Source: a virus
Lineage: Duplodnaviria > Heunggongvirae > Uroviricota > Caudoviricetes
Strand: one strand, 5' to 3'
Virus record (IMG/VR): IMGVR_UViG_3300021256_000063
Span: 1-64,000 of that record
Length of the DNA stretch: 64,000 nt
The translations under genes were made by a program, and so were the position numbers. Position 1 is the stretch's first letter. Each line of letters starts with the position of its first letter. Under the pieces are notes generated by a model that was given only the letters and a program-made list of their open reading frames with translations, made no database searches and was not told the DNA's origin. This document shows positions 4,267 through 35,789 of the stretch, in pieces.

Positions 4267-5844
4267 TTACCATTTATCAATTCCAGCAAGGACATTAATT
4301 TCTTTTTGCACTACATCATACCAAGTTCCAAGAGTTTTACGTCTTTGTTCGCCAGAACCATACTTATGATCAATAGCTTTATCACCAGTATATAAGCCCT
4401 TAGCAACCTTATATACCCAATTGACTTTATTCTGTACTGCAACTGCGTCATATCCTGCTTTAGTTAATTTAGTAAAACGCTCCGATCCATCAACAGCACC
4501 ATTACCATATTTACCACGATATACGTCTGCAATGATTTCAGGCATTACTTCTTTCGTATTCTTCACAATAGCCTTATTAACTACAGGTTTAATATTCTTT
4601 TCTACGATTTTTTCAGAAACAACCTGAGATTTAGAACCAGTCTTTTCAACCTCATATTCAATCTCAAAAGCTACCTCATCATTCACACATTCAAGAATAC
4701 CATTCCAAGGATAAGAGTAATACATCTTCAAATGACTTTCGCCACGTCCGTATTGCTCATCATAATTACCTACCTGTTTCTGATCACCGACTTTGCCACC
4801 ATTTGCTGTACCCTTCTCATTAATGCTGAATTCCATTAACACATCGGGCTCAGCCGACAAACACATAGCTGTATGACATTTCTCATTAAGATAAACATCA
4901 CCCATTTGAGCAATAAAGGACATAGGACGCCATTTAAAATTTCCAGTACCTGTCATACACTGACGCATATTGCCAGTATAAGTAGCACCACCGCAACTAA
5001 TGCCAGCGGCTTCAAATGCAGATATAACAGCAGAAGAGCAATCTCTATCTCCAGATTTGATAGTATATTTATGACCATAGATATCTATAGTCTCAGTACC
5101 TGTGCCAAATCTTTTATCCATATCCTGTGTATAACCGTGATCTTTATGAGTACACAAATGTCTCATAATTAAAGCAGCCACTTCTTTCTTATACACACGA
5201 TAAATTTTCTTTTCCTTAACAGGCTGAGTATTTGATGTGTCTTTCTTCCTATTATTAAACGGGACATACCATATAGATTCATCTACATTTCCAGAAATGC
5301 CGGGAATATGTGCCCTTGAGGTAAACTGCCAACCATCCATAGGAAACGATGGTTTATATTTAGCTTCTTGCTTGCCAGAATTTGTGCCATAAGCAGGAAT
5401 CCATCTACGACATTCAAATCCTTTTAACGGATCACGCCAAAAAGCCTGTCCTGCATAAACTCCAGAATCATTACCAAATTCTTTAAGCCATGCAGTAGTT
5501 GCCTTTTTGTTTAAATGTCTTAAATTCCATTCTTCTAAATCGAGCCAATGTGATACAACATTCTTTCCTTCTGTCAATCGTTTTTCATGAGCAATTTCAC
5601 TCTTGATTTGATTCTCATTACCAGCATAACTATAAAGGTATGTTCCATAGGGAATGCCATATTTCTCACATTGTTCCACATTATATTTATAATATTTATC
5701 ATCTTGAGATTTAATATCATCTCCATATCCAGTACGAAGAATAGCACCGTCAATATAATCTTTAGCACGCTTCCAGTCAATCTTACCTTGATGCTCAGAT
5801 GCATCAATAATTCTTTCGCTCATAAGCATCCCCTTTCTATACAA
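4267..5844 (-). CDS. Endolysin: N-terminal GH25 muramidase plus a central Cys-peptidase-like (NlpC/P60 or CHAP-like) region and a C-terminal putative cell-wall-binding region
   Basis: The N-terminus IIDASEHQGKIDW...AILRTGYG matches the GH25 lysozyme signature. The mid region has DCSSAVISAFEAAGI and downstream His residues. 525 aa. Confidence 0.85.
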   Translation of the reverse strand: MYRKGMLMSERIIDASEHQGKIDWKRAKDYIDGAILRTGYGDDIKSQDDKYYKYNVEQCEKYGIPYGTYLYSYAGNENQIKSEIAHEKRLTEGKNVVSHWLDLEEWNLRHLNKKATTAWLKEFGNDSGVYAGQAFWRDPLKGFECRRWIPAYGTNSGKQEAKYKPSFPMDGWQFTSRAHIPGISGNVDESIWYVPFNNRKKDTSNTQPVKEKKIYRVYKKEVAALIMRHLCTHKDHGYTQDMDKRFGTGTETIDIYGHKYTIKSGDRDCSSAVISAFEAAGISCGGATYTGNMRQCMTGTGNFKWRPMSFIAQMGDVYLNEKCHTAMCLSAEPDVLMEFSINEKGTANGGKVGDQKQVGNYDEQYGRGESHLKMYYSYPWNGILECVNDEVAFEIEYEVEKTGSKSQVVSEKIVEKNIKPVVNKAIVKNTKEVMPEIIADVYRGKYGNGAVDGSERFTKLTKAGYDAVAVQNKVNWVYKVAKGLYTGDKAIDHKYGSGEQRRKTLGTWYDVVQKEINVLAGIDKW

Positions 5845-18389: not shown

Positions 18390-19481
18390 TTAACTTGCAT
18401 TTGCCCATTGCCATCCAAAACCACCGCATTTTCTCCTTATACCATCACATACCTTCCTAATATTTCTTTGTGCGGCTTCAGCACTTTGTCCGGTTTCTTC
18501 TGCTACATTGCGCCCAGCATCTGCTATAGAATTAAATGTGCAAATATAACTACCGTTTATATCATATTTATTAACAGGACGCAACATACCAGAATAGTCA
18601 TCTTTTGATAACGTTGGTGGTTTTTTATCTTTAGTCCACAGAAAGCCACAAGCACTTTGAACTTCACCTCTTAAACATTGATATATACGATGTCTTGCGC
18701 CTGTATCATTAGTTTCTGTACCTAAATACAGTCTATGCACGGCTTCTCTAACATCATCATAAACTCCAATTAATTGTTTGGTATGTACATCCCAACAATA
18801 CACAATTCCATCATATGGCATCATTTGTTTAATACTGGCCTTATACTTTTTTCGTATTATATTATTTATCCCTTTTATTTCTGATTCAGGGATATCATTT
18901 CCATGTGTATCTTTATGATACCGAAATATATATTTACTAGCTCTTAATTGCCGACCTTTAACTACTTTTAATATATTAGTTTTTTTAACGCCAGTTATAT
19001 CTTGTGCTTCATTATATGTCATTGCCGTACCAAGGTATTTACCATTTAAATCAAAGTAATCTATTGGAGTTCTTTTAGCTAAATTATGTTTATTATTTCT
19101 TAATTTTTCTTTATGATCTTCTGATAGAGGAACACCAACATGTGAATAACCACCATCATCTCGATTATATCCATAAGAAGGATGTTGCCATCTGTTTAAA
19201 TTAGTTTTATATTTTTTAATATAATAGCGTTCTCGTTTACAGGCTTGTTCAAAAGAAAGTTTTTCTTCCAAAATAATATGTTTAAAATTATCCCAACCAT
19301 ATTTTTTTATTGCCCTATAAAATACAGTTTGAGTATGATATCCCTCTCCATTTGCCCATCTAACTTCAGGCTTTAATGACGTTATACCAATATACCTCTT
19401 ATCATTGGGGGCTACATGCATATAAACACAATACAACACATCCAAATAATTTTTCCATGTCTTTTTGGTATCTTCTAACAT
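18390..19481 (-). CDS. GIY-YIG homing endonuclease with NUMOD-like repeats
   Basis: VYMHVAPNDKRYIGITS...RWANG matches the GIY-YIG module. SEDHKEKLRNNKHN is NUMOD3-like. Confidence 0.75.
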   Translation of the reverse strand: MLEDTKKTWKNYLDVLYCVYMHVAPNDKRYIGITSLKPEVRWANGEGYHTQTVFYRAIKKYGWDNFKHIILEEKLSFEQACKRERYYIKKYKTNLNRWQHPSYGYNRDDGGYSHVGVPLSEDHKEKLRNNKHNLAKRTPIDYFDLNGKYLGTAMTYNEAQDITGVKKTNILKVVKGRQLRASKYIFRYHKDTHGNDIPESEIKGINNIIRKKYKASIKQMMPYDGIVYCWDVHTKQLIGVYDDVREAVHRLYLGTETNDTGARHRIYQCLRGEVQSACGFLWTKDKKPPTLSKDDYSGMLRPVNKYDINGSYICTFNSIADAGRNVAEETGQSAEAAQRNIRKVCDGIRRKCGGFGWQWANAS

Positions 19482-28508: not shown

Positions 28509-28751
28509 TCAAGCCCTTTTATATTTCCCAATTGACCCATCTTCAAATTCAATCATAATATATTCAGGATACTTTTGTTCTTTATAAAACTTATATCCTG
28601 TAATTGGTTTCCTTGCTTTTGGTAAGATGTGTGCAGCCTCACATTTTTCTGCGGCAGACCGATCTCTATATACAATGCCACAGATTTCACACTGATATTG
28701 ATTAAGTTCTTTCATATTATATATCCTCATTACCACCTTATAATAACCCAC
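28509..28751 (-). CDS. hypothetical Cys-containing protein
   Basis: 80 aa ORF. Confidence 0.4.
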   Translation of the reverse strand: MGYYKVVMRIYNMKELNQYQCEICGIVYRDRSAAEKCEAAHILPKARKPITGYKFYKEQKYPEYIMIEFEDGSIGKYKRA

Positions 28752-28957
28752 GGCTGATTGTACTGATTTCCTGTCTGCACATCATAGCCCAATTCTTTAA
28801 GCTTCTTTATCTGAAGAGCGGTCAATGATCCTTCAAAAGAATATTCAAATTCCCCTTGTTTTGCGCATTCTTCCATCCGTTCTACCATTTCTCCAATATG
28901 AGAATCAATAAATTTTTCTGCTATTTCTCGCATCATGGCAGCTGTTTTAAAACTCAT
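28730..28957 (-). CDS. small protein, family A (C-terminal LGY-x-V...W-x-I-x-W)
   Basis: KKLKELGYDVQTGNQYNQPWVIIRW; member of a tandem paralog array. Confidence 0.5.
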   Translation of the reverse strand: MSFKTAAMMREIAEKFIDSHIGEMVERMEECAKQGEFEYSFEGSLTALQIKKLKELGYDVQTGNQYNQPWVIIRW

Positions 28958-28966
28958 ATCTTCACC

Positions 28967-29194
28967 TCACCATTCAACTACAAACCAATGATTTTCAGCG
29001 TTCTGTCCGGTTGTTACCTTAAATCCTAACAATTTTAACAATTTATTTTCATCCTTTGTAAGAATGTCATAGCAAGCATAGTTGTAATACCCGTTTAATG
29101 CGCGCTCTTTAATTTCTTTTAAAATATTATCACCTTCTTCATATTCATTAACTATATCAGCTACCCTTCTTAAATTTTCTGCCGTAACACTCAT
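28967..29194 (-). CDS. small protein, family A
   Basis: LLKLLGFKVTTGQNAENHWFVVEW. Confidence 0.5.
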   Translation of the reverse strand: MSVTAENLRRVADIVNEYEEGDNILKEIKERALNGYYNYACYDILTKDENKLLKLLGFKVTTGQNAENHWFVVEW

Positions 29195-29203
29195 ATCTAT
29201 ATC

Positions 29204-29455
29204 TCACCATCCAATCTTTGTAAATGTCTTATCACATATCTTTCGCACGTCCACTATATAGCCCATTTTTCTTAATTGCTCTATAATTGGTTCGCTTAAC
29301 TCACCCTGAAAGCCATATACAAAATTACCTTGCTTTGCCTGTTCATAGATACCCTCAAGCACGTAATCTTCAAATTCATGCGGCTCAATATATGAAGAGG
29401 CCAATTCATGCATTTTATGCGCCGATTCTAATCTCACCACTCGATCACCACCCAT
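29204..29455 (-). CDS. small protein, family A
   Basis: QLRKMGYIVDVRKI...KIGW. Confidence 0.45.
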   Translation of the reverse strand: MGGDRVVRLESAHKMHELASSYIEPHEFEDYVLEGIYEQAKQGNFVYGFQGELSEPIIEQLRKMGYIVDVRKICDKTFTKIGW

Positions 29456-29670
29456 CTAACGTCACTTTGGCTCTCAGTTACCTTATAGCCCAGTATTCTT
29501 AATGAGGCAATTGTTTCAGGTGAAATATGACTCGTTACATAATAAGAGTATTCATCGAGTGCTCGTTTCCTAATATTATTATAAATACTAGTATCTATGA
29601 GCTGTGTTTTCATTACTTTAGTTACTGCATGCATATCTCGTGCGTTTAATACATTATCTTTCAAACTCAT
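29434..29670 (-). CDS. small protein, family A
   Basis: LRILGYKVTESQSDVRWVVIEW. Confidence 0.5.
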   Translation of the reverse strand: MSLKDNVLNARDMHAVTKVMKTQLIDTSIYNNIRKRALDEYSYYVTSHISPETIASLRILGYKVTESQSDVRWVVIEW

Positions 29671-29974
29671 CTTGTAACTCCCATCTGTTTGTCTTAATTA
29701 TTCTATCCCAATTGTCCTCGACCACAGGTCGGATCACATGTATCTGTTCATTGGTCAGGTGACGCTTAAAATTAAATAAGAATCCGTGTTCTTTAAACGT
29801 CACACAATGAATCTCACACCAGCCCATATCAAGCAACGTCTCTTCAGGATGTGGTGTCCATTCTCCAATTAGTTCGTCAGCGGTCGCTAGGTATTCCATG
29901 TAATCGCATGGGTAGAAATCGCCATTCGGTGCAAGCCAGCCTGTGTCTAATTCTGTAAAAGGTTGTTTATTCAA
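29654..29974 (-). CDS. hypothetical protein
   Basis: 106 aa ORF. Confidence 0.45.
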   Translation of the reverse strand: MNKQPFTELDTGWLAPNGDFYPCDYMEYLATADELIGEWTPHPEETLLDMGWCEIHCVTFKEHGFLFNFKRHLTNEQIHVIRPVVEDNWDRIIKTNRWELQDEFER

Positions 29975-30428
29975 TGTGTAAATTCTCCTTCATCCACTGA
30001 TCATTTTCTTCTTGTTTCGCCGCTAAATCTCGCTGTAATTCTTTGATTAAATTTGCTTGAATTTCCGTTCGTTTCATTTTTTCTTTTTGCTCTTTGTAGC
30101 GTTTAATAAATTTTCTATATTTACAATAATCAAAATATGTTTTAAATGAAACGCCCTTATATTTATAATTAACACTAAATTCATTTAACCCAAAATTTTC
30201 TGGCATTATACTATATAAAGAATAGAATTCTTCAAATGTCAATTCAGGATTATCCCAATTCTTTATATAACATTCCCAATCATGTATAGAATTGCGCAAC
30301 TTGACTGTTAAGATAATTATGCCCACCATTATGCCTATCATTAGGAGCCATAACCACCACGGTTCAATTTTACAAAAAATAATTAATAACAAAACAATTT
30401 CTATAATAAGTGATATGTTTATTTTCAT
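29967..30428 (-). CDS. membrane protein, cassette copy 1 (paralog of the gene at 31611..32051)
   Basis: Two N-terminal transmembrane helices. The conserved block FEEFYSLYSIMPENF...FKTYFDYCKYRKF is followed by a coiled-coil tail. Confidence 0.55.
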   Translation of the reverse strand: MKINISLIIEIVLLLIIFCKIEPWWLWLLMIGIMVGIIILTVKLRNSIHDWECYIKNWDNPELTFEEFYSLYSIMPENFGLNEFSVNYKYKGVSFKTYFDYCKYRKFIKRYKEQKEKMKRTEIQANLIKELQRDLAAKQEENDQWMKENLHIE

Positions 30429-30439
30429 GTTAACCTCAT

Positions 30440-31120
30440 TTACCCCCAGTAATTAATAGCCTCTTGTCGTTCCATGAAAAAGTGGATACCGGGCGCACAT
30501 TCATGCCAGCGATTTTCGCAAAAATCAGGCGCCATTACGACTTTATTAGGCTCATATATAAAATGTGGATCATACGCAGAATACGCTCTATCTACAGGTT
30601 TACCGTCTAATGTTTGTACATCTAATACTATAGCTTTATTACATCTGCATTTACGATTACACGCACTACTTCGTTTAGCTTCAGCGGGGATGAAGAGTTT
30701 AATTATACATGGAATTCGTTGTCTCATAATAGGATCGACTTCTAAATCTATATGTAATTCTTTATATGCTTTCTTCCATCCAATAAAGTCGCCTTCAACT
30801 GGACAAGCCATCGGAACATAGGGCTGTGTGCCATTAAAGTCACACCAATCTACAATTGCTTTAAATGTTCCTTTAAAAGTACAATTATTAAAAACACATT
30901 CTATAAAAATATCACAAGTGTGTTCACTAAAAACGCAATAATCAAAACAGCAACCTTGAAAAGTAACTGCATTTTGCCCATCAAGACAACTATACCAAAT
31001 TTTATCAATTCTATCTAAATTAAAGCCTATAAAATTACAGCTATCATATACTATATCAAGTGAATGCCATAGGAATTCCGATGTGTAAGAAGGATATATC
31101 TTTTTATTTTTAATAATCAT
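30440..31120 (-). CDS. pentapeptide-repeat-like / Cys-rich protein, cassette copy 1 (paralog of the gene at 32048..32650)
   Basis: Shared blocks NCTFKGTF, QPYVPMACPVEGDFIGWK, RKCRCNKAIVL and GIHFFMERQEAINYW. Confidence 0.55.
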   Translation of the reverse strand: MIIKNKKIYPSYTSEFLWHSLDIVYDSCNFIGFNLDRIDKIWYSCLDGQNAVTFQGCCFDYCVFSEHTCDIFIECVFNNCTFKGTFKAIVDWCDFNGTQPYVPMACPVEGDFIGWKKAYKELHIDLEVDPIMRQRIPCIIKLFIPAEAKRSSACNRKCRCNKAIVLDVQTLDGKPVDRAYSAYDPHFIYEPNKVVMAPDFCENRWHECAPGIHFFMERQEAINYWG

Positions 31121-31123
31121 AAT

Positions 31124-31453
31124 TTAATTATAACTCCTTTCAGGCAGTGCCAGCAGCTTTGAGATCGGCATCATTAACCAGTTACCATAGTTACTTTTAC
31201 CTTTACAATCTTCTTCAGGCCAGACAATAGGACAGTATTCACATACCCCAGACACGTATTCGCATAAGAAACAATAATAACGTAAATTATTAAATCCATG
31301 ATCGATGCACCAGTTCGCTTTATATAACACTCTATCAAATGCTGATGGACAGTCACCCAAATCCCGTTGCATATCGCTCCACATCTGACGATGATAGGAG
31401 AGTGCTTGCTCTTTAGTTAATTTCATTTCATCACCCCTCTGCAGCCGCTTCAA
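31124..31453 (-). CDS. hypothetical Cys-rich protein
   Basis: 109 aa ORF. Confidence 0.45.
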   Translation of the reverse strand: MKRLQRGDEMKLTKEQALSYHRQMWSDMQRDLGDCPSAFDRVLYKANWCIDHGFNNLRYYCFLCEYVSGVCEYCPIVWPEEDCKGKSNYGNWLMMPISKLLALPERSYN

Positions 31454-31610
31454 CGATTAGTACCATATATTGTATTACTATGCCAAATAATATTGGAAAG
31501 AAAATAGCAAAAAAGTCTCTAACGTCTTTTGGGTTTATAAATACTATATTTGATATCACCCATGCCAAAATAATAGTTGCCGTCATAAATTCAATATGTA
31601 TTCGTTTCAT

Positions 31611-32051
31611 TTAATTTAGATGCTCCTTCATAAAGTAATCAATGTCTGCTTGTTCTCGTACCAGTTCGCGTTGAAGATTGGCAATTAGTTCTGCCTGATT
31701 TTGAAGCTGCTCCTGCTGAATCTGACGTTTCTCAATATTTTTATGAAAATGCCGATATCGCATTACATCAATAAACGTCTTAAAGTCTACAGCGTCACCA
31801 CTATATTTTATGTCATAATCATTAAGTATAAAATCTTCTGGCATTACATGATATAAAGCAATGAACTGGCGGTAGGTAATTCTCGGAGTGGTGGAACAGA
31901 CTATATTCCACCAAGTCATATAAAAACACAATAATACCAGATCAATGACCCAAATTATAATCATCATTAAAAGTGCAAACCCATTACCCGTACAAAGGGT
32001 AAGAACTGCGGGCGCTATAAAAAAGAATACGAATATAATTATAGCTATCAT
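31611..32051 (-). CDS. membrane protein, cassette copy 2
   Basis: Start set at MIAIIIFVFF, which has an AAGGAG site. It aligns with the gene at 29967..30428 (YRQFIALYHVMPEDF...FKTFIDVMRYRHF). Confidence 0.55.
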   Translation of the reverse strand: MIAIIIFVFFFIAPAVLTLCTGNGFALLMMIIIWVIDLVLLCFYMTWWNIVCSTTPRITYRQFIALYHVMPEDFILNDYDIKYSGDAVDFKTFIDVMRYRHFHKNIEKRQIQQEQLQNQAELIANLQRELVREQADIDYFMKEHLN

Positions 32052-32650
32052 AGATTCTCCTTGTAATAATTCACTGCTTCTTGCCGCTCCATAAAGAAAT
32101 GAATACCATGTGAACATGCGTAGTTCCTGTCATTATCAAATTGGTCAGGATATACCCATTCGTTAACTTTATAATAAAAATCAGGCGACCACCGAGAACA
32201 AGCGATCTTATCCTCTGCTGGCGTCCCATCCACATTTTGAATCTCCAATACAAACGCCTTATCACATCGGCATTTGCGCTCTCCATAAGGCGAAACACGC
32301 CTTGCATCAGCTGGGATCAGCAGCTTAATCAACCGCCCATTACAATCTACTTTCCAACCGATAAATGCACCCTCAACTGGACAGACATAGGGAATATAAG
32401 GTTGATTACCAAGAAAGTCACAGTCTACTACATGAGCATTAAATGTATTCTTAAATGTGCAATTTATAAAAATACAGTTCATAAAAAATATAGAAAACGA
32501 TTCATCGAATGTACAATATTCAAATCTACAGGATAAGAAAGTAAATGGCAGATACCATTTCTTAAAATTAACTCCAATAAAATGACAATGCGTATAACTA
32601 TCAACTATATAAGGATAAGTACCCGGAAAATATTTCTTATCTGTTATCAT
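32048..32650 (-). CDS. pentapeptide-repeat-like / Cys-rich protein, cassette copy 2
   Basis: NCTFKNTF, QPYIPYVCPVEGAFIGWK, RKCRCDKAFVL and GIHFFMERQEAVNYY. Confidence 0.55.
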   Translation of the reverse strand: MITDKKYFPGTYPYIVDSYTHCHFIGVNFKKWYLPFTFLSCRFEYCTFDESFSIFFMNCIFINCTFKNTFNAHVVDCDFLGNQPYIPYVCPVEGAFIGWKVDCNGRLIKLLIPADARRVSPYGERKCRCDKAFVLEIQNVDGTPAEDKIACSRWSPDFYYKVNEWVYPDQFDNDRNYACSHGIHFFMERQEAVNYYKENL

Positions 32651-32665
32651 TTAATTTATGCCCCC

Positions 32666-32902
32666 TTATTCCCAACTAATACAATATTCTGGCATATTAT
32701 ATTGATTACCTGTAACAATATCATAGCCCAGTTCTTCCAATTTTTTTCGAACTGCTGGTCGCAACACCCCATCCCCATAATATTTATAATATCCCTGAGC
32801 CGAATCTTTATCGATGTTTTCCATTATTTCATTAAATTGGGACTGTTCATATTTAGATATAGCTGCTTTTGCACGCTGACGTGCCTGTTCTGCTGTTATC
32901 AT
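32666..32902 (-). CDS. small protein, family A
   Basis: KKLEELGYDIVTGNQYNMPEYCISWE. Confidence 0.5.
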   Translation of the reverse strand: MITAEQARQRAKAAISKYEQSQFNEIMENIDKDSAQGYYKYYGDGVLRPAVRKKLEELGYDIVTGNQYNMPEYCISWE

Positions 32903-32917
32903 TTATTTTTACCCCTC

Positions 32918-33172
32918 CTACCATATAATATATGTTACATAACCACTGTCTGTCCAAGATGACGAATGTGTGGTTATTGTATAACCAAGGTCTTCAAATG
33001 TACTTTTTACAAAAGGAGAAAGTTCATCATAATATTCACACGATGTTTCACCTTTAACAACAGCTTCTCCAATTTTATTATTAACGGTTTCGATCTCGTC
33101 CTTATAACGATATATCATTGAATATTCTCGTGCTTTTTCTGCGCTGTACAATTCGTTCATACTTTCTCCCAA
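32918..33172 (-). CDS. small protein, family A
   Basis: FEDLGYTITTHSS...YVTYIIW. Confidence 0.45.
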   Translation of the reverse strand: MGESMNELYSAEKAREYSMIYRYKDEIETVNNKIGEAVVKGETSCEYYDELSPFVKSTFEDLGYTITTHSSSWTDSGYVTYIIW

Positions 33173-33387
33173 TTAATATATGTAATACAACCACTGTGCA
33201 AACTAATAATTCCTACATTATAACCCATGTCTATTAATATCTGTTCAGTGGCTTCGCTGATCTCTTCTTCGATTAGACAACATGTCGTGTGCTTTTCTGC
33301 TGCAGTCCTGATTTTGTCTTCAATATATTTTAATTCTTCTGGATCAACACCTTGTGCGATTTTATATGCTTCTTGTGCTGTTATCAT
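33157..33387 (-). CDS. small protein, family A
   Basis: LIDMGYNVGIISLHSGCITYINW. Confidence 0.45.
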   Translation of the reverse strand: MITAQEAYKIAQGVDPEELKYIEDKIRTAAEKHTTCCLIEEEISEATEQILIDMGYNVGIISLHSGCITYINWEKV

Positions 33388-33499: not shown

Positions 33500-33505
33500 T
33501 GTCAA
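33500..33505 (-). promoter_or_regulatory. candidate -35 box (TTGACA on the minus strand) upstream of the family A array
   Basis: The reverse complement reads TTGACAGTGGGCGC...; the -10 is unclear. Confidence 0.25.
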
Positions 33506-34467
33506 GTATTTTTAATATAAGTATCTGCACACAGGTTTATAAGCGGCGACTTAATTGGCTTACTCGTTGCCAGTGCCCAGCTATTAGCCCATGCCACCAT
33601 CATTTGGTTCAATGATACCCCGGCCTCTTCAAGCTTGCGGGTATCCCGCTCAATCTGCCGCTCCATTCCCTCTTTTGTAAATACTATTTTGATGCAGTCA
33701 AATATTTGAAGGTCTGGGTCTGCCGACAGATGATGCAGCCGATAAAGCTGTGCCGCACATTCTTTATAGAAGCGGTCGTATAGATCAGACCTAAATACCA
33801 ATTGTCCTAAATTATCTAATCCCAGTCGGTCAAGTTCATTTCGCCGCACCCCCATTATAATGTCGGCCTCATCATCAGTCGCAATTCGTGTAGTCCCGAA
33901 CTCTTTAATAAGAAAACAATCAGAATATAAAATAAAAGACTGCTGCTGAAGACGGACTAGCGCACGCCTGAATATATTATTTAATTGTGAATACGACTGA
34001 CGGAAGAATGTCTGTATATTATATTGAATAACATCTTCAGGCAGTTTCCCAAATGGATAAAGTGGTGCCAGATCAACTGAAGCTGGGAACTGAGTGGTCT
34101 TATGAGAAAGTGACAGGTATTCGGGGTTGACCATATTAAGCTGCTCCCACCATTTTTTACGTCCCAGAACGGCTGTATTATTTTCCTGTTGAAGAAGATA
34201 ATTTAGGAGCAATATTTTAATCAACTTATCATATTTAGTACTGCGCTCATCTGGAAGGGGATGAGCATAGATTTCAGTTATGTAGTAGAGGCAGTCCTTG
34301 GGATCATAAACAAAGGACGCAAACTGGGACAGACGTCTGTTAAATGCTGTTCTGGAGTTACCACCTAATTTTGGCTGATCAAATACTTTATAAATTTCAG
34401 TAGAAGAGTAAATAGTGTCAGGGATTAATTTTTGGACAGTTTCTTGTGTAATGTTATAATCTTTCAT
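33502..34467 (-). CDS. hypothetical protein, first gene of the leftward arm
   Basis: AAAGGAG then 11 nt then ATG (MKDYNIT); about 321 aa; no motif recognised. Confidence 0.55.
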   Translation of the reverse strand: MKDYNITQETVQKLIPDTIYSSTEIYKVFDQPKLGGNSRTAFNRRLSQFASFVYDPKDCLYYITEIYAHPLPDERSTKYDKLIKILLLNYLLQQENNTAVLGRKKWWEQLNMVNPEYLSLSHKTTQFPASVDLAPLYPFGKLPEDVIQYNIQTFFRQSYSQLNNIFRRALVRLQQQSFILYSDCFLIKEFGTTRIATDDEADIIMGVRRNELDRLGLDNLGQLVFRSDLYDRFYKECAAQLYRLHHLSADPDLQIFDCIKIVFTKEGMERQIERDTRKLEEAGVSLNQMMVAWANSWALATSKPIKSPLINLCADTYIKNT

Positions 34468-34579
34468 ATTTTTGTTACTCCTTTCGTTTGTATTGTACAA
34501 AATAAGGTGAATGGCGTGAATCGCCTTATTTTAATTAGTGTTTTTATATGGACACTCAAAAAGTCCAATGTTTTCAGTA

Positions 34580-34641
34580 GGGGGTGTACAAAATTTGAAT
34601 ATAGTAAATACTCTTACTATATTCATTTTTCGTACACCCCC
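34580..34641. promoter_or_regulatory. 62-bp near-perfect palindrome (cruciform or hairpin) in the divergent control region
   Basis: GGGGGTGTACAAAATTTGAATATAGTAA-ATACTC-TTACTATATTCATTTTTCGTACACCCCC. Confidence 0.6.
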
Positions 34642-34787
34642 CTCCGTAAAATAAGGGTTTTTTGATGGTCGGATTGTACTACAATTTTAAGGCTAATAAA
34701 TATAAGGGGAATTCCTATATGGAAGGTCTCCACTCCCACAATGATAGTATAACAGGTATGTGTCAAGGTGTCAATAAATAATTAAAT

Positions 34788-35098
34788 AGTGGGGAAAATG
34801 ATTGGAATGGGGGAAATGTGGATAAGTGGGAGGGGATCATTATTTTAATTAATGAAATATTGGGGGAAGTGATGTGGATAAAATGGGGATAAGGGGAGGG
34901 GATAACCAGTGGATTCGTATTTTATTTGTTTTTGGAATGGGATTGGGGTGGGGTAGAGTTGGTGAAGAGAATGGGAGGGAGGAATAAAGTGTAATAAAAT
35001 GGATATGTTTTGTGAGTGTGAAATATTGGGGTATTGAAATAAATACTATATATAGTATGGGTATATGGGAACGGTGGTGTATTTTGTGGTGTGTGGAT
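34788..35098 (+). repeat. ~310 bp G-rich, C-depleted tract with many GGGG runs and iterated motifs (ATGTGGATAA twice; GGAATGGG(G) repeats)
   Basis: The plus strand has almost no C. G4-capable runs are present: tggggaaaatg, ggaatggggg, gtgggagggg, aaggggagggg, gattggggtgggg. Confidence 0.6.
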
Positions 35099-35182
35099 GA
35101 AGCTCGTTCCCGGAAATCCCTGATTTTATGCGGATCTTCCGGTTTAAATATGCCCCCTTTTAACCAAAAACAAACTATAATT

Positions 35183-35219
35183 TGTCAATGTTGACATATA
35201 CCATGGATATGCTATTGTA
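35183..35219 (+). promoter_or_regulatory. rightward sigma70-like promoter (TTGACA-16/17-TATTGT) inside the palindrome TGTCAATGTTGACA
   Basis: -35 at 35191-35196; -10 near 35213-35219. A second TTGACA lies on the opposite strand at 35183-35188. Confidence 0.45.
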
Positions 35220-35789
35220 TGGTCAGGCCGAGGGAAAAGCCACCGGGTGACAATCTGGTACACACAAGCGAATCCCTTGTCCACCATATCGTAGCAATCC
35301 CTACCTGGCTTCCAGGCGCAAGGGTGCGGAACGCAAGTTGAGAGGAGTGCGTTCAATGAATTGACAAATGAATAGGATTGTAGGCGTATGCCGGGAGACC
35401 GACTTCAAGGCGTGCTGTTCCCCAATGCCAAACTGGGGATGTAACAAGCGTTTAGGGTCAGACTATCCTTGTCATGTAGAAATTGGCAAGGCGTCCCTTT
35501 TCAGCAGGACATGGCACTAAAAAAGCAACGAACCCTCCCTCCGTCCAAAGGAAAAAGTCGAAACCACAATCCGATTTCTATATAGGTGCTTGGACTGATG
35601 GATGGTAGGCGGTCTCACAGACTTTTTGCGCCATTTGGCGCCGTCTTGGTCAAACGTGAATCCGACTGTTCCGGACGCCGGGGGTGACAACTCGCCGTGT
35701 GTGCAAAACAAGCGTTCGGTCTCGGGACTTGTTCCCGGTTCCAATTTTCATTTCAGTTTAGGGCTATGCCCGGAAAGGATGGTAACATC
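35220..35789 (+). ncRNA. ~570-nt GC-rich untranslated leader or structured RNA upstream of the first rightward gene
   Basis: GC is about 55% against about 35% in the flanks. No ORF has a ribosome-binding site. Many potential stems are present. Confidence 0.35.

What the first reader, a model, noticed from the sequence alone, without database searches (positions are those of the whole stretch)
29654..32650. Diverged segmental duplication of a two-gene cassette (pentapeptide-like Cys-rich protein plus two-TM membrane protein)
The pair at 30440-31120 and 29967-30428 is repeated at 32048-32650 and 31611-32051. Long blocks are conserved in both proteins: QPY(V/I)P..CPVEG.FIGWK, RKCRC.KA.VL and GIHFFMERQEA(I/V)NY in one, and the LY..MPE.F motif in the other. 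Conserved pairing of a soluble repeat protein with a membrane partner suggests a functional two-component unit, such as toxin/immunity, superinfection exclusion or a receptor-modifying pair.
Basis: seen in the sequence. Interest (0 to 1): 0.6.

Follow-up and report, generated by a model that had tools for sequence, protein, structure and literature searches.

The report
Duplicated phage gene pair, loosely linked
An uncultured large phage carries two old, diverged copies of a gene pair, a soluble beta-helix protein with the uncharacterised DUF5758 domain followed by a small membrane-anchored protein; related phages show the two genes are neighbours in a fast-changing accessory region, not an obligate two-part system.

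Summary
The protein at 30440-31120 and the one at 32048-32650 are paralogues (44% identity, E 2e-52). So are the proteins at 29967-30428 and 31611-32051 (36% identity, E 3e-22). All four genes lie on the minus strand, and each pair is close enough to be translationally coupled.

The soluble proteins have a short, degenerate pentapeptide-repeat beta-helix followed by Pfam DUF5758 (PF19062). This family is large and already catalogued in phages and bacteria, and its fold also occurs in giant viruses. Its function is unknown, and I found no solved structural relative and no paper.

The membrane proteins have a two-helix N-terminal anchor, a probably cytoplasmic domain and a coiled coil. They belong to an unnamed family with at least 354 clusters at 50% identity.

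The proposed functional two-component unit is not supported:
- Either DUF5758 gene can be missing in close relatives while its membrane partner stays intact.
- The order of the upstream pair is different in six related loci.
- The sequence divergences of the two partners do not track each other.
- No membrane-family gene lies near DUF5758 in 140 other loci.

The DUF5758 gene at 30440-31120 is a sharp recombination hotspot. The block is best read as an ancient tandem duplication inside a mosaic, probably early, accessory operon. It is a new member of known kinds and of modest interest.

The parts
32048..32650 (-). PRP2: 200-aa soluble protein. A degenerate pentapeptide-repeat beta-helix (about aa 17-85, 32396-32602) is followed by DUF5758 (aa 88-192, 32075-32389).
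31611..32051 (-). TM2: 146-aa membrane protein with an N-terminal two-helix anchor, a conserved P..T..F..LY..MPE.F...FKT..D..Y..F domain and a C-terminal coiled coil. Its start codon overlaps the PRP2 stop codon (ATGA).
   Evidence: The hydropathy scan scores one segment (aa 2-20) and merges the second, which I read from the sequence. It belongs to an unnamed family of at least 354 representatives.
31431..31610 (-). o59: 59-aa hydrophobic protein between the two pairs. It is conserved in this position in related phages.
31124..31453 (-). o109: small Cys-rich protein just upstream of PRP1. The likely real start is the ATG at 31426 (100 aa, site AGAGGTGA upstream; start and site read from the sequence). 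It is duplicated in tandem in L004, L007-L009 and L013.
   Evidence: No Pfam or PHROG hit.
30440..31120 (-). PRP1: 226-aa paralogue of PRP2. It has a degenerate beta-helix (aa 1-97) and DUF5758 (about aa 98-221, 30458-30829), with an insertion of about 16 residues after FIGWK. It is a hypervariable, replaceable slot.
   Evidence: Pfam PF19062 at E 3.9e-32. Nucleotide identity to L010 is 56-70% here, against mostly 95-100% beyond about 200 nt on either side. Protein identity is 56%. The gene is deleted in L001 and shortened to 140-154 aa in L004, L007-L009 and L011-L013.
29967..30428 (-). TM1: 153-aa paralogue of TM2. Its start lies 11 nt after the PRP1 stop codon.
   Evidence: It follows the PRP1 slot in all ten related loci, L001-type deletion included.
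29654..29974 (-). o106: 106-aa soluble protein that overlaps the end of TM1. It is a constant downstream neighbour in related phages and is not duplicated.
   Evidence: No family hit.
28730..29670 (-). Four tandem paralogues (s1-s4) of a 75-83-aa family that flank the block downstream.
   Evidence: Alignment A8; HMM E-values 1e-23 to 1e-30.
32666..33387 (-). Three more paralogues (s5-s7) of the same small family that flank the block upstream.
34746..34774 (-). Sigma-70-type promoter-like site (TTGACA, 17 nt, TATACT, with TG extension) upstream of the 332-aa first gene (33502-34500) of the leftward gene string that contains the block.
   Evidence: Consensus scan, 11 of 12 matches. Only one weak terminator-like site (7-bp stem, inside PRP2) lies between it and the block. 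GC skew changes sign at about 34-35 kb. This is a consensus match only; function is inferred.

Best explanation
I call the pair at 30440-31120 / 29967-30428 PRP1/TM1 and the pair at 32048-32650 / 31611-32051 PRP2/TM2. The block is an ancient tandem duplication of two adjacent genes. It sits in a long leftward string of small genes in an uncultured large phage (related contigs are about 130-160 kb). A host-type promoter-like site heads the string, so it is probably an early accessory region. Gene A (PRP1, PRP2) encodes a soluble protein. Its N-terminus is a short right-handed pentapeptide-repeat beta-helix of about 3.5 coils, with Cys and Phe in the inward-facing positions. Its C-terminus is DUF5758, a compact beta-rich domain ending in a helix, with invariant Cys, His and basic residues (C90, C127, C129, C179, H184, K100, R118, K126, R128, R175 in PRP2 numbering). 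I infer that the Cys and His residues form a structural zinc site, that the variable beta-helix recognises a target, and that DUF5758 is the constant module. Gene B (TM1, TM2) encodes a protein anchored by an N-terminal two-helix hairpin, with a conserved domain and coiled coil that the positive-inside rule places in the cytoplasm. The two genes are co-transcribed neighbours and are not obligate partners. The membrane genes are the stable part of the locus. The DUF5758 genes are gained, lost, truncated and swapped by recombination. That pattern fits accessory host-interaction or phage-competition genes under diversifying pressure. Shown: paralogy, domain identities, predicted folds, gene turnover and lack of co-variation. 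Inferred: early expression, zinc binding, membrane topology and any biological role.
Against: No expression, localisation or phenotype data exist. The early timing rests on one consensus promoter match. I could not inspect model coordinates, so I did not check that the Cys and His residues cluster in space. Wherever a PRP1-type gene exists in this lineage, TM1 follows it directly (nine related loci plus the window). Both window pairs are also spaced for translational coupling. Some functional cooperation therefore remains possible. In L158 a distant TM-family gene lies 1.5 kb downstream of a DUF5758 gene in the same gene string. That is weak evidence of recurrent co-residence.
Confidence: 0.6

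Rival explanations
1. One reading: each PRP/TM pair is an obligate two-component unit, for example a toxin with its immunity protein, or a membrane-tethered exclusion or receptor-modifying device. The duplication then produced two units of different specificity.
For: The repeated gene order PRP then TM appears in the window and in L010. There is a start/stop overlap or an 11-nt gap between partners. PRP1-to-TM1 adjacency is kept in L004 and L007-L013. The TM cytoplasmic domain could dock a cytoplasmic partner. A variable PRP1 next to a constant TM1 resembles a specificity subunit next to a constant subunit.
Against: TM1 stays intact after PRP1 is deleted. TM2 is present without PRP2 in L004 and next to an unrelated gene in L005/L006. 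TM2 lies upstream of PRP2 and is not adjacent to it in six loci. Partner divergences do not co-vary. There is no TM-family neighbour in 140 other DUF5758 loci. Membrane-type downstream neighbours are not enriched (2 of 57 against 12.8%). There are no meaningful PADLOC matches (one chance-level hit for TM2, E 0.011). Only the version with PRP as a dispensable effector and TM as the immunity or anchor protein survives the deletion data.
Confidence: 0.15
2. The PRP proteins are Qnr/MfpA-type DNA mimics that bind a host DNA enzyme such as gyrase or a restriction or defence nuclease. The membrane proteins are then unrelated neighbours.
Confidence: 0.1
3. The similarity is chance or compositional, and the ORFs are not real genes.
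For: The region is AT-rich (33-37% GC). The DNA copies are barely alignable.
Against: Pairwise E-values are 2e-52 and 3e-22. The Pfam hit scores four times the gathering threshold. There are hundreds to thousands of database homologues. The ORFs are conserved in syntenic relatives. Ribosome-binding sites are present.
Confidence: 0.01

Closest known systems
Pfam DUF5758 (PF19062) pentapeptide-repeat proteins, e.g. the 'pentapeptide repeat protein' of Cjw1/Porky-type mycobacteriophages (Cjw1 gene 58) and PHROG 9562
   Same: The C-terminal domain is the same, with the invariant CP..G, KCRC.KA and C..GIHFF motifs, and the architecture is an N-terminal beta-helix followed by DUF5758.
   Different: The window proteins have a degenerate, Cys/Phe-rich helix that scores below the Pfam pentapeptide thresholds. 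Identity to the mycobacteriophage proteins is only 30-44%. The family has no assigned function and no paper in the searched library.
Qnr / MfpA / AlbG / McbG pentapeptide-repeat topoisomerase protectors
Giant-virus multigene families with a DUF5758-like C-terminal fold (mimivirus L87 and L812; klosneuvirus MORN-repeat, HEAT and RING proteins)
   Same: The predicted fold of the C-terminal domain is the same (Foldseek E 1e-8 to 1e-3, TM-score normalised to the query 0.6-0.8). These families also occur as many paralogues per genome.
   Different: Sequence identity is 12-33%, the N-terminal repeat types differ, and the hosts are eukaryotic. All are uncharacterised.
Phage membrane-anchored superinfection-exclusion proteins (e.g. 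T4 Imm, P22 SieA; named from my own knowledge and the review PMC11436027)
   Same: They are small, phage-encoded, membrane-anchored proteins outside the lysis module.
   Different: There is no sequence or family match. The comparison is an analogy for a possible role of TM1 and TM2, not a membership claim.

Membership tests
Pfam DUF5758 (PF19062) | HMM score above the curated gathering threshold (26.9 bits) | tested here: met
   110.8 bits (30440-31120) and 118.9 bits (32048-32650). All invariant family residues are present.
Pentapeptide repeat proteins (PF00805 / PF13576 / PF13599) | HMM score above the gathering threshold for tandem A(D/N)LXX repeats | tested here: not met
   Best scores are 14.3 bits against 27 and 14.5 bits against 38. 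The repeats are degenerate (xCxFx pentads).
Pentapeptide repeat proteins (PF00805 / PF13576 / PF13599) | Right-handed quadrilateral beta-helix fold | tested here: met
Qnr/MfpA-type DNA mimics | Long, strongly anionic helix of DNA-like dimensions | tested here: not met
   About 3.5 coils; net charge -1 (PRP2 N-terminal domain) and -5 (PRP1 N-terminal domain).
Qnr/MfpA-type DNA mimics | Binding to or protection of DNA gyrase | not testable with these tools
   Needs biochemistry.
Toxin-immunity / toxin-antitoxin gene pair | Obligate co-occurrence and conserved adjacency of the two genes | tested here: not met
   PRP1 is deleted with TM1 intact (L001). PRP2 is absent with TM2 intact (L004). TM2 sits next to an unrelated gene (L005/L006). 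The order is reversed and interrupted in L007-L013. No TM-family neighbour occurs in 140 other DUF5758 loci.
Toxin-immunity / toxin-antitoxin gene pair | Toxicity of one partner that the other neutralises | not testable with these tools
   Needs expression experiments.
Known anti-phage defence systems (PADLOC-DB v2) | Significant match to a defence-system protein model | tested here: not met
   No hit for either PRP or for TM1. TM2 has only a hit at E 0.011 to a candidate model.
Holin / spanin lysis membrane proteins | Location in the lysis cassette next to the endolysin | tested here: not met
   The endolysin is at 4267-5844, about 24 kb away. No holin family hit.
Superinfection-exclusion membrane proteins | Membrane anchoring of a small phage protein | tested here: met
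   Hydrophobic N-terminal segments are present in TM1 and TM2 and in the wider family.
Superinfection-exclusion membrane proteins | Exclusion phenotype | not testable with these tools
   Needs a cultured host and phage.

The most novel reading that the evidence does not exclude
DUF5758 could be a constant, zinc-stabilised effector or docking module, shared by phages and giant viruses, that is combined with interchangeable repeat scaffolds (pentapeptide, MORN, HEAT). In this phage lineage it would be recruited to the inner face of the membrane by the cytoplasmic coiled-coil domain of the adjacent TM protein. The swappable PRP1 allele would set target specificity, for example against a membrane-associated host defence or an incoming competitor phage.
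Probability: 0.1. Interest if true: 0.6.

Novelty: new member of a known kind. Interest (0 to 1): 0.3.

Why it matters
On its own this is ordinary phage dark matter: paralogous accessory genes in a mosaic region. Three points give it modest value. First, DUF5758 is very widespread: at least 1402 protein clusters, 333 stretches in IMG/VR, many mycobacteriophages, a related fold in giant viruses, and a solitary chromosomal gene in Mogibacterium. Yet it has no function, no solved structural relative and no literature, so any functional handle would annotate thousands of genes. Second, PRP1 shows a very sharp allelic-replacement hotspot (56% protein identity inside DNA that is mostly 95-100% identical). 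That is the signature expected of genes in host-phage or phage-phage conflict, so this locus is a reasonable place to test DUF5758. Third, the membrane partner defines an unnamed family of at least 354 clusters at 50% identity that is missing from Pfam, PHROGs, NCBIfam and PADLOC.

Tried and rejected
- Near-identity DNA search against cultured phages found no match.
- tblastn of TM1 against cultured phages found no match. The phage is related only distantly to human-faecal phage contigs and Enterocloster phage CB457P1.
- Literature searches for DUF5758 and PF19062 found no papers. Searches combining pentapeptide repeats with phage terms gave only incidental mentions.
- The afdb50 library was unavailable.
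- The search for related loci failed with the broad TM alignment because no block was conserved enough. Single distant members gave no confirmed hit.
- I considered a lipoprotein signal in TM2 (LTLC). I rejected it because the Cys is not conserved in the family.
- I considered a link to gyrase because the Mogibacterium pumilum homologue lies near the start of the chromosome record. I rejected it because its neighbours are a penicillin-binding protein, a Na+/H+ antiporter and pyruvate:ferredoxin oxidoreductase subunits.
- I considered a holin or spanin role and rejected it because of the distance from the endolysin.
Full report
NAMES. All genes discussed are on the minus strand. PRP1 is 30440-31120 and TM1 is 29967-30428. 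PRP2 is 32048-32650 and TM2 is 31611-32051. The labels o332, o109, o106, o102, o80 and o59 name neighbouring ORFs by their length in amino acids. The labels s1 to s7 name seven small paralogues that flank the block.

1. OBSERVATION. The region is a tightly packed string of minus-strand ORFs.
- PRP1 and PRP2 align over their full lengths at 44% identity (E 2e-52).
- TM1 and TM2 align over the C-terminal 105 residues at 36% identity (E 3e-22). Their hydrophobic N-termini also align.
- The copies are nearly unrecognisable at DNA level, so the duplication is old.
- Ribosome-binding sites precede PRP2, TM2 (at the 32051 start, which overlaps the PRP2 stop codon), PRP1 and TM1 (11 nt after the PRP1 stop codon).
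- HMM searches find only these two DUF5758 genes and these two membrane genes in the 64-kb window.

2. THE SOLUBLE PROTEINS.
- Family. Both match Pfam DUF5758 (PF19062) at about four times the gathering score, and also PHROG 9562, which has no known function.
- Repeats. Their N-terminal halves score below the Pfam pentapeptide thresholds. Among at least 1402 database homologues, most carry true PF00805 repeats in that position.
- Cysteines. Written in pentads, the N-terminus reads xCxFx. Cys and Phe occupy the inward-facing positions that Ala and Leu usually hold; that repeat consensus is from my own knowledge. This explains much of the Cys-richness.
- Wider distribution of the fold. Among predicted viral structures the fold recurs in 37 proteins at E up to 1e-3. 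Most are from mimiviruses and klosneuviruses, where it sits C-terminal to pentapeptide, MORN, HEAT or RING regions. Four more are in Acidovorax phage ACP17.
- Conserved residues. The invariant or near-invariant residues are C90, P91, G94, K100, P113, R118, S120, K126, C127, R128, C129, Y160, R175, C179, G182, I183, H184, F185, F186 and A192 (PRP2 numbering). I infer a structural zinc site from the Cys and His set. I could not check their geometry.
- Literature. No paper in the searched library mentions the family.

3. THE MEMBRANE PROTEINS.
- Architecture. A hydropathy scan scores two hydrophobic segments at the N-terminus of TM1. For TM2 it scores one and merges the second, which I read from the sequence. 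A conserved domain follows (P..T..F..LY..MPE.F...Y....FKT..D..Y..F), and then a heptad-like Q..LI..LQ..L...Q segment.
- Topology. Basic residues follow the second hydrophobic segment. This suggests an N-in/C-in hairpin with a cytoplasmic C-terminal domain (inference from the positive-inside rule).
- Family size. The word-indexed search found 185 relatives, all of TM1 or TM2 type, from short to 160-kb metagenome contigs. An exhaustive HMMER search found 354 representatives at E up to 1e-3, and 58 at E up to 1e-10. These include versions with a single membrane helix and longer ones that share the motif block.
- Annotation. The family has no significant match in Pfam, PHROGs, NCBIfam or PADLOC. 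It is absent from cultured phages.

4. CONTEXT.
- The window is phage DNA. It carries an endolysin (4267-5844), a homing endonuclease, a nucleotidyltransferase and three tRNAs.
- GC skew changes sign at about 34-35 kb.
- A near-consensus sigma-70-type promoter-like site (34774-34746, minus strand, 11 of 12 matches, TG extension) lies upstream of o332 (33502-34500), the first gene of the leftward string. Only one weak terminator-like site, a 7-bp stem inside PRP2, lies between it and the block. I infer early, host-polymerase transcription from this.
- The gene order is o332, s7 s6 s5, PRP2, TM2, o59, o109, PRP1, TM1, o106, s4 s3 s2 s1, o80, o102. The seven s genes are paralogues of a 75-84-aa family.

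5. COMPARATIVE TEST OF THE PAIRING. Eleven related loci were mapped.
- L010 has the window's order.
- L001 has PRP1 deleted. It retains ATGATTATTAA at the 5' end and a remnant encoding ...EALEYYG followed by a stop codon at the 3' end. TM1 is intact and 99% identical.
- L004 lacks PRP2 and keeps TM2.
- L007-L009 and L011-L013 place TM2 upstream of PRP2. A 71-aa gene is called between them in L007-L009. In L011-L013 there is a gap of about 200 nt that I did not annotate. These loci also have a shortened PRP1 of 140-154 aa, DUF5758 only, just before TM1.
- L005 and L006 have a TM2-type gene after an unrelated 194-aa acidic protein.
- TM1 and TM2 form separate orthologous groups in all relatives (26-34% identity between groups). 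Both PRP types recur. The duplication therefore predates this phage lineage.
- Partner divergences do not co-vary. Between the window and L010, PRP1 is 56% identical and TM1 93%. Between L007 and L011, PRP1 is 69% identical and TM1 36%.
- Against L010, nucleotide identity falls to 56-70% over the PRP1 gene body (30500-31099) and is reduced (72-91%) for about 200 nt on either side. Beyond that it is mostly 95-100%, with occasional bins near 90%. This pattern indicates replacement by recombination with a divergent allele.
- Outside the lineage, a broad TM-family HMM finds no member within about 4 kb of DUF5758 in 140 other loci. The downstream neighbour of DUF5758 has a hydrophobic segment in 2 of 57 phage cases, against a background of 12.8%.
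- Of four distinct contexts of distant TM-family members, one (L158) has a DUF5758 gene 1.5 kb upstream in the same gene string, not adjacent. The other three have none on their short contigs.
- DUF5758 genes are often multi-copy (four in L017).
- DUF5758 genes also occur in gut and rumen Clostridia genomes. In Mogibacterium the gene is solitary and chromosomal, between an antiporter gene and pyruvate:ferredoxin oxidoreductase genes.
- Among cultured phages they are mostly in mycobacteriophages, where they are annotated only as 'pentapeptide repeat protein'.

6. INTERPRETATION.
- The best-supported account is an ancient tandem duplication of two adjacent genes inside a mosaic, paralogue-rich and probably early accessory operon. 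The membrane genes are the stable elements. The DUF5758 genes are the labile, recombining ones.
- The adjacency looks like synteny plus co-transcription, not an obligate partnership.
- A dispensable-effector form of the two-component idea cannot be excluded (about 0.15). TM1 always follows PRP1 where PRP1 exists, and the gene spacing suggests translational coupling.
- A Qnr-like DNA-mimic role is unlikely (about 0.1). The helix is short and not markedly acidic. It is dispensable in relatives, and other repeat types replace it in giant viruses.

7. NOVELTY AND SCORE.
- The soluble proteins are new, degenerate members of a catalogued but uncharacterised family.
- The membrane proteins belong to an uncatalogued family.
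- The pairing is specific to this lineage.
- A specialist would not be surprised to find paralogous accessory genes in a large phage. The PRP1 hotspot and the breadth of DUF5758 make the locus a reasonable entry point for studying that domain.
- Interest: 0.3.

Noticed in passing
window 28730-29670 and 32666-33387 (minus strand): Seven paralogues of a 75-84-aa protein family flank the PRP/TM block, four downstream and three upstream. Only M1, A6, G57 and the C-terminal W are invariant; a (L/M)G(Y/F) motif is typical. The family has no Pfam hit. Copy number varies from 1 to 9 across related loci, and some copies are swapped for divergent alleles in L001.
   Followed up: partly
window 31124-31453; L004 3869-4539; L007 3874-4547: The Cys-rich o109 gene just upstream of PRP1 is present as a tandem pair in several related phages (about 47-53% identity to the window copy). 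This is another paralogue expansion in the same operon.
   Followed up: no
window 30300-31300 against L010: The divergent segment is not confined to PRP1. It extends about 200 nt into the 3' half of o109 (81-83% identity) and into the 5' end of TM1 (72% identity with a 12-nt indel). The exchanged module therefore carries the ends of both neighbours.
   Followed up: partly
L123 3857-4573 (Mogibacterium pumilum ATCC 700696 chromosome) and L093, L102, L121, L127, L129, L132: A full-length pentapeptide plus DUF5758 gene (147.5 bits to PF19062) is found across Mogibacterium species. In M. pumilum, the one context I examined, it lies in an apparently non-prophage setting (penicillin-binding protein, Na+/H+ antiporter, pyruvate:ferredoxin oxidoreductase). 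DUF5758 is therefore not exclusively viral.
   Followed up: partly
L017 and L028 (same IMG/VR contig 3300045988_077386, 151.5 kb): Four DUF5758 genes lie within one 8-kb stretch, and two more lie about 10 kb away on the same viral contig. The family tends to expand within genomes.
   Followed up: no
window 34500-35600: This is a divergent-transcription region. GC skew flips sign here, and strong promoter-like sites face both ways (34774-34746 on the minus strand; 35191-35218 on the plus strand). GC content rises to 54% at 36-38 kb.
   Followed up: no
window 18390-19481 and 60785-63837: A homing-endonuclease-like ORF (PHROG 314) lies at 18390-19481. Three tRNA genes (Gln-TTG, Pro-TGG, Thr-TGT) lie at 60785-63837. 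Two of them are 86-88 nt long, which is unusual and could mean introns or miscalls.
   Followed up: no
L007 3484-3852; L008 3496-3864: Related phages carry a 122-aa YAcAr-domain (PF10686) gene between the two PRP/TM pairs. The window has no counterpart.
   Followed up: no
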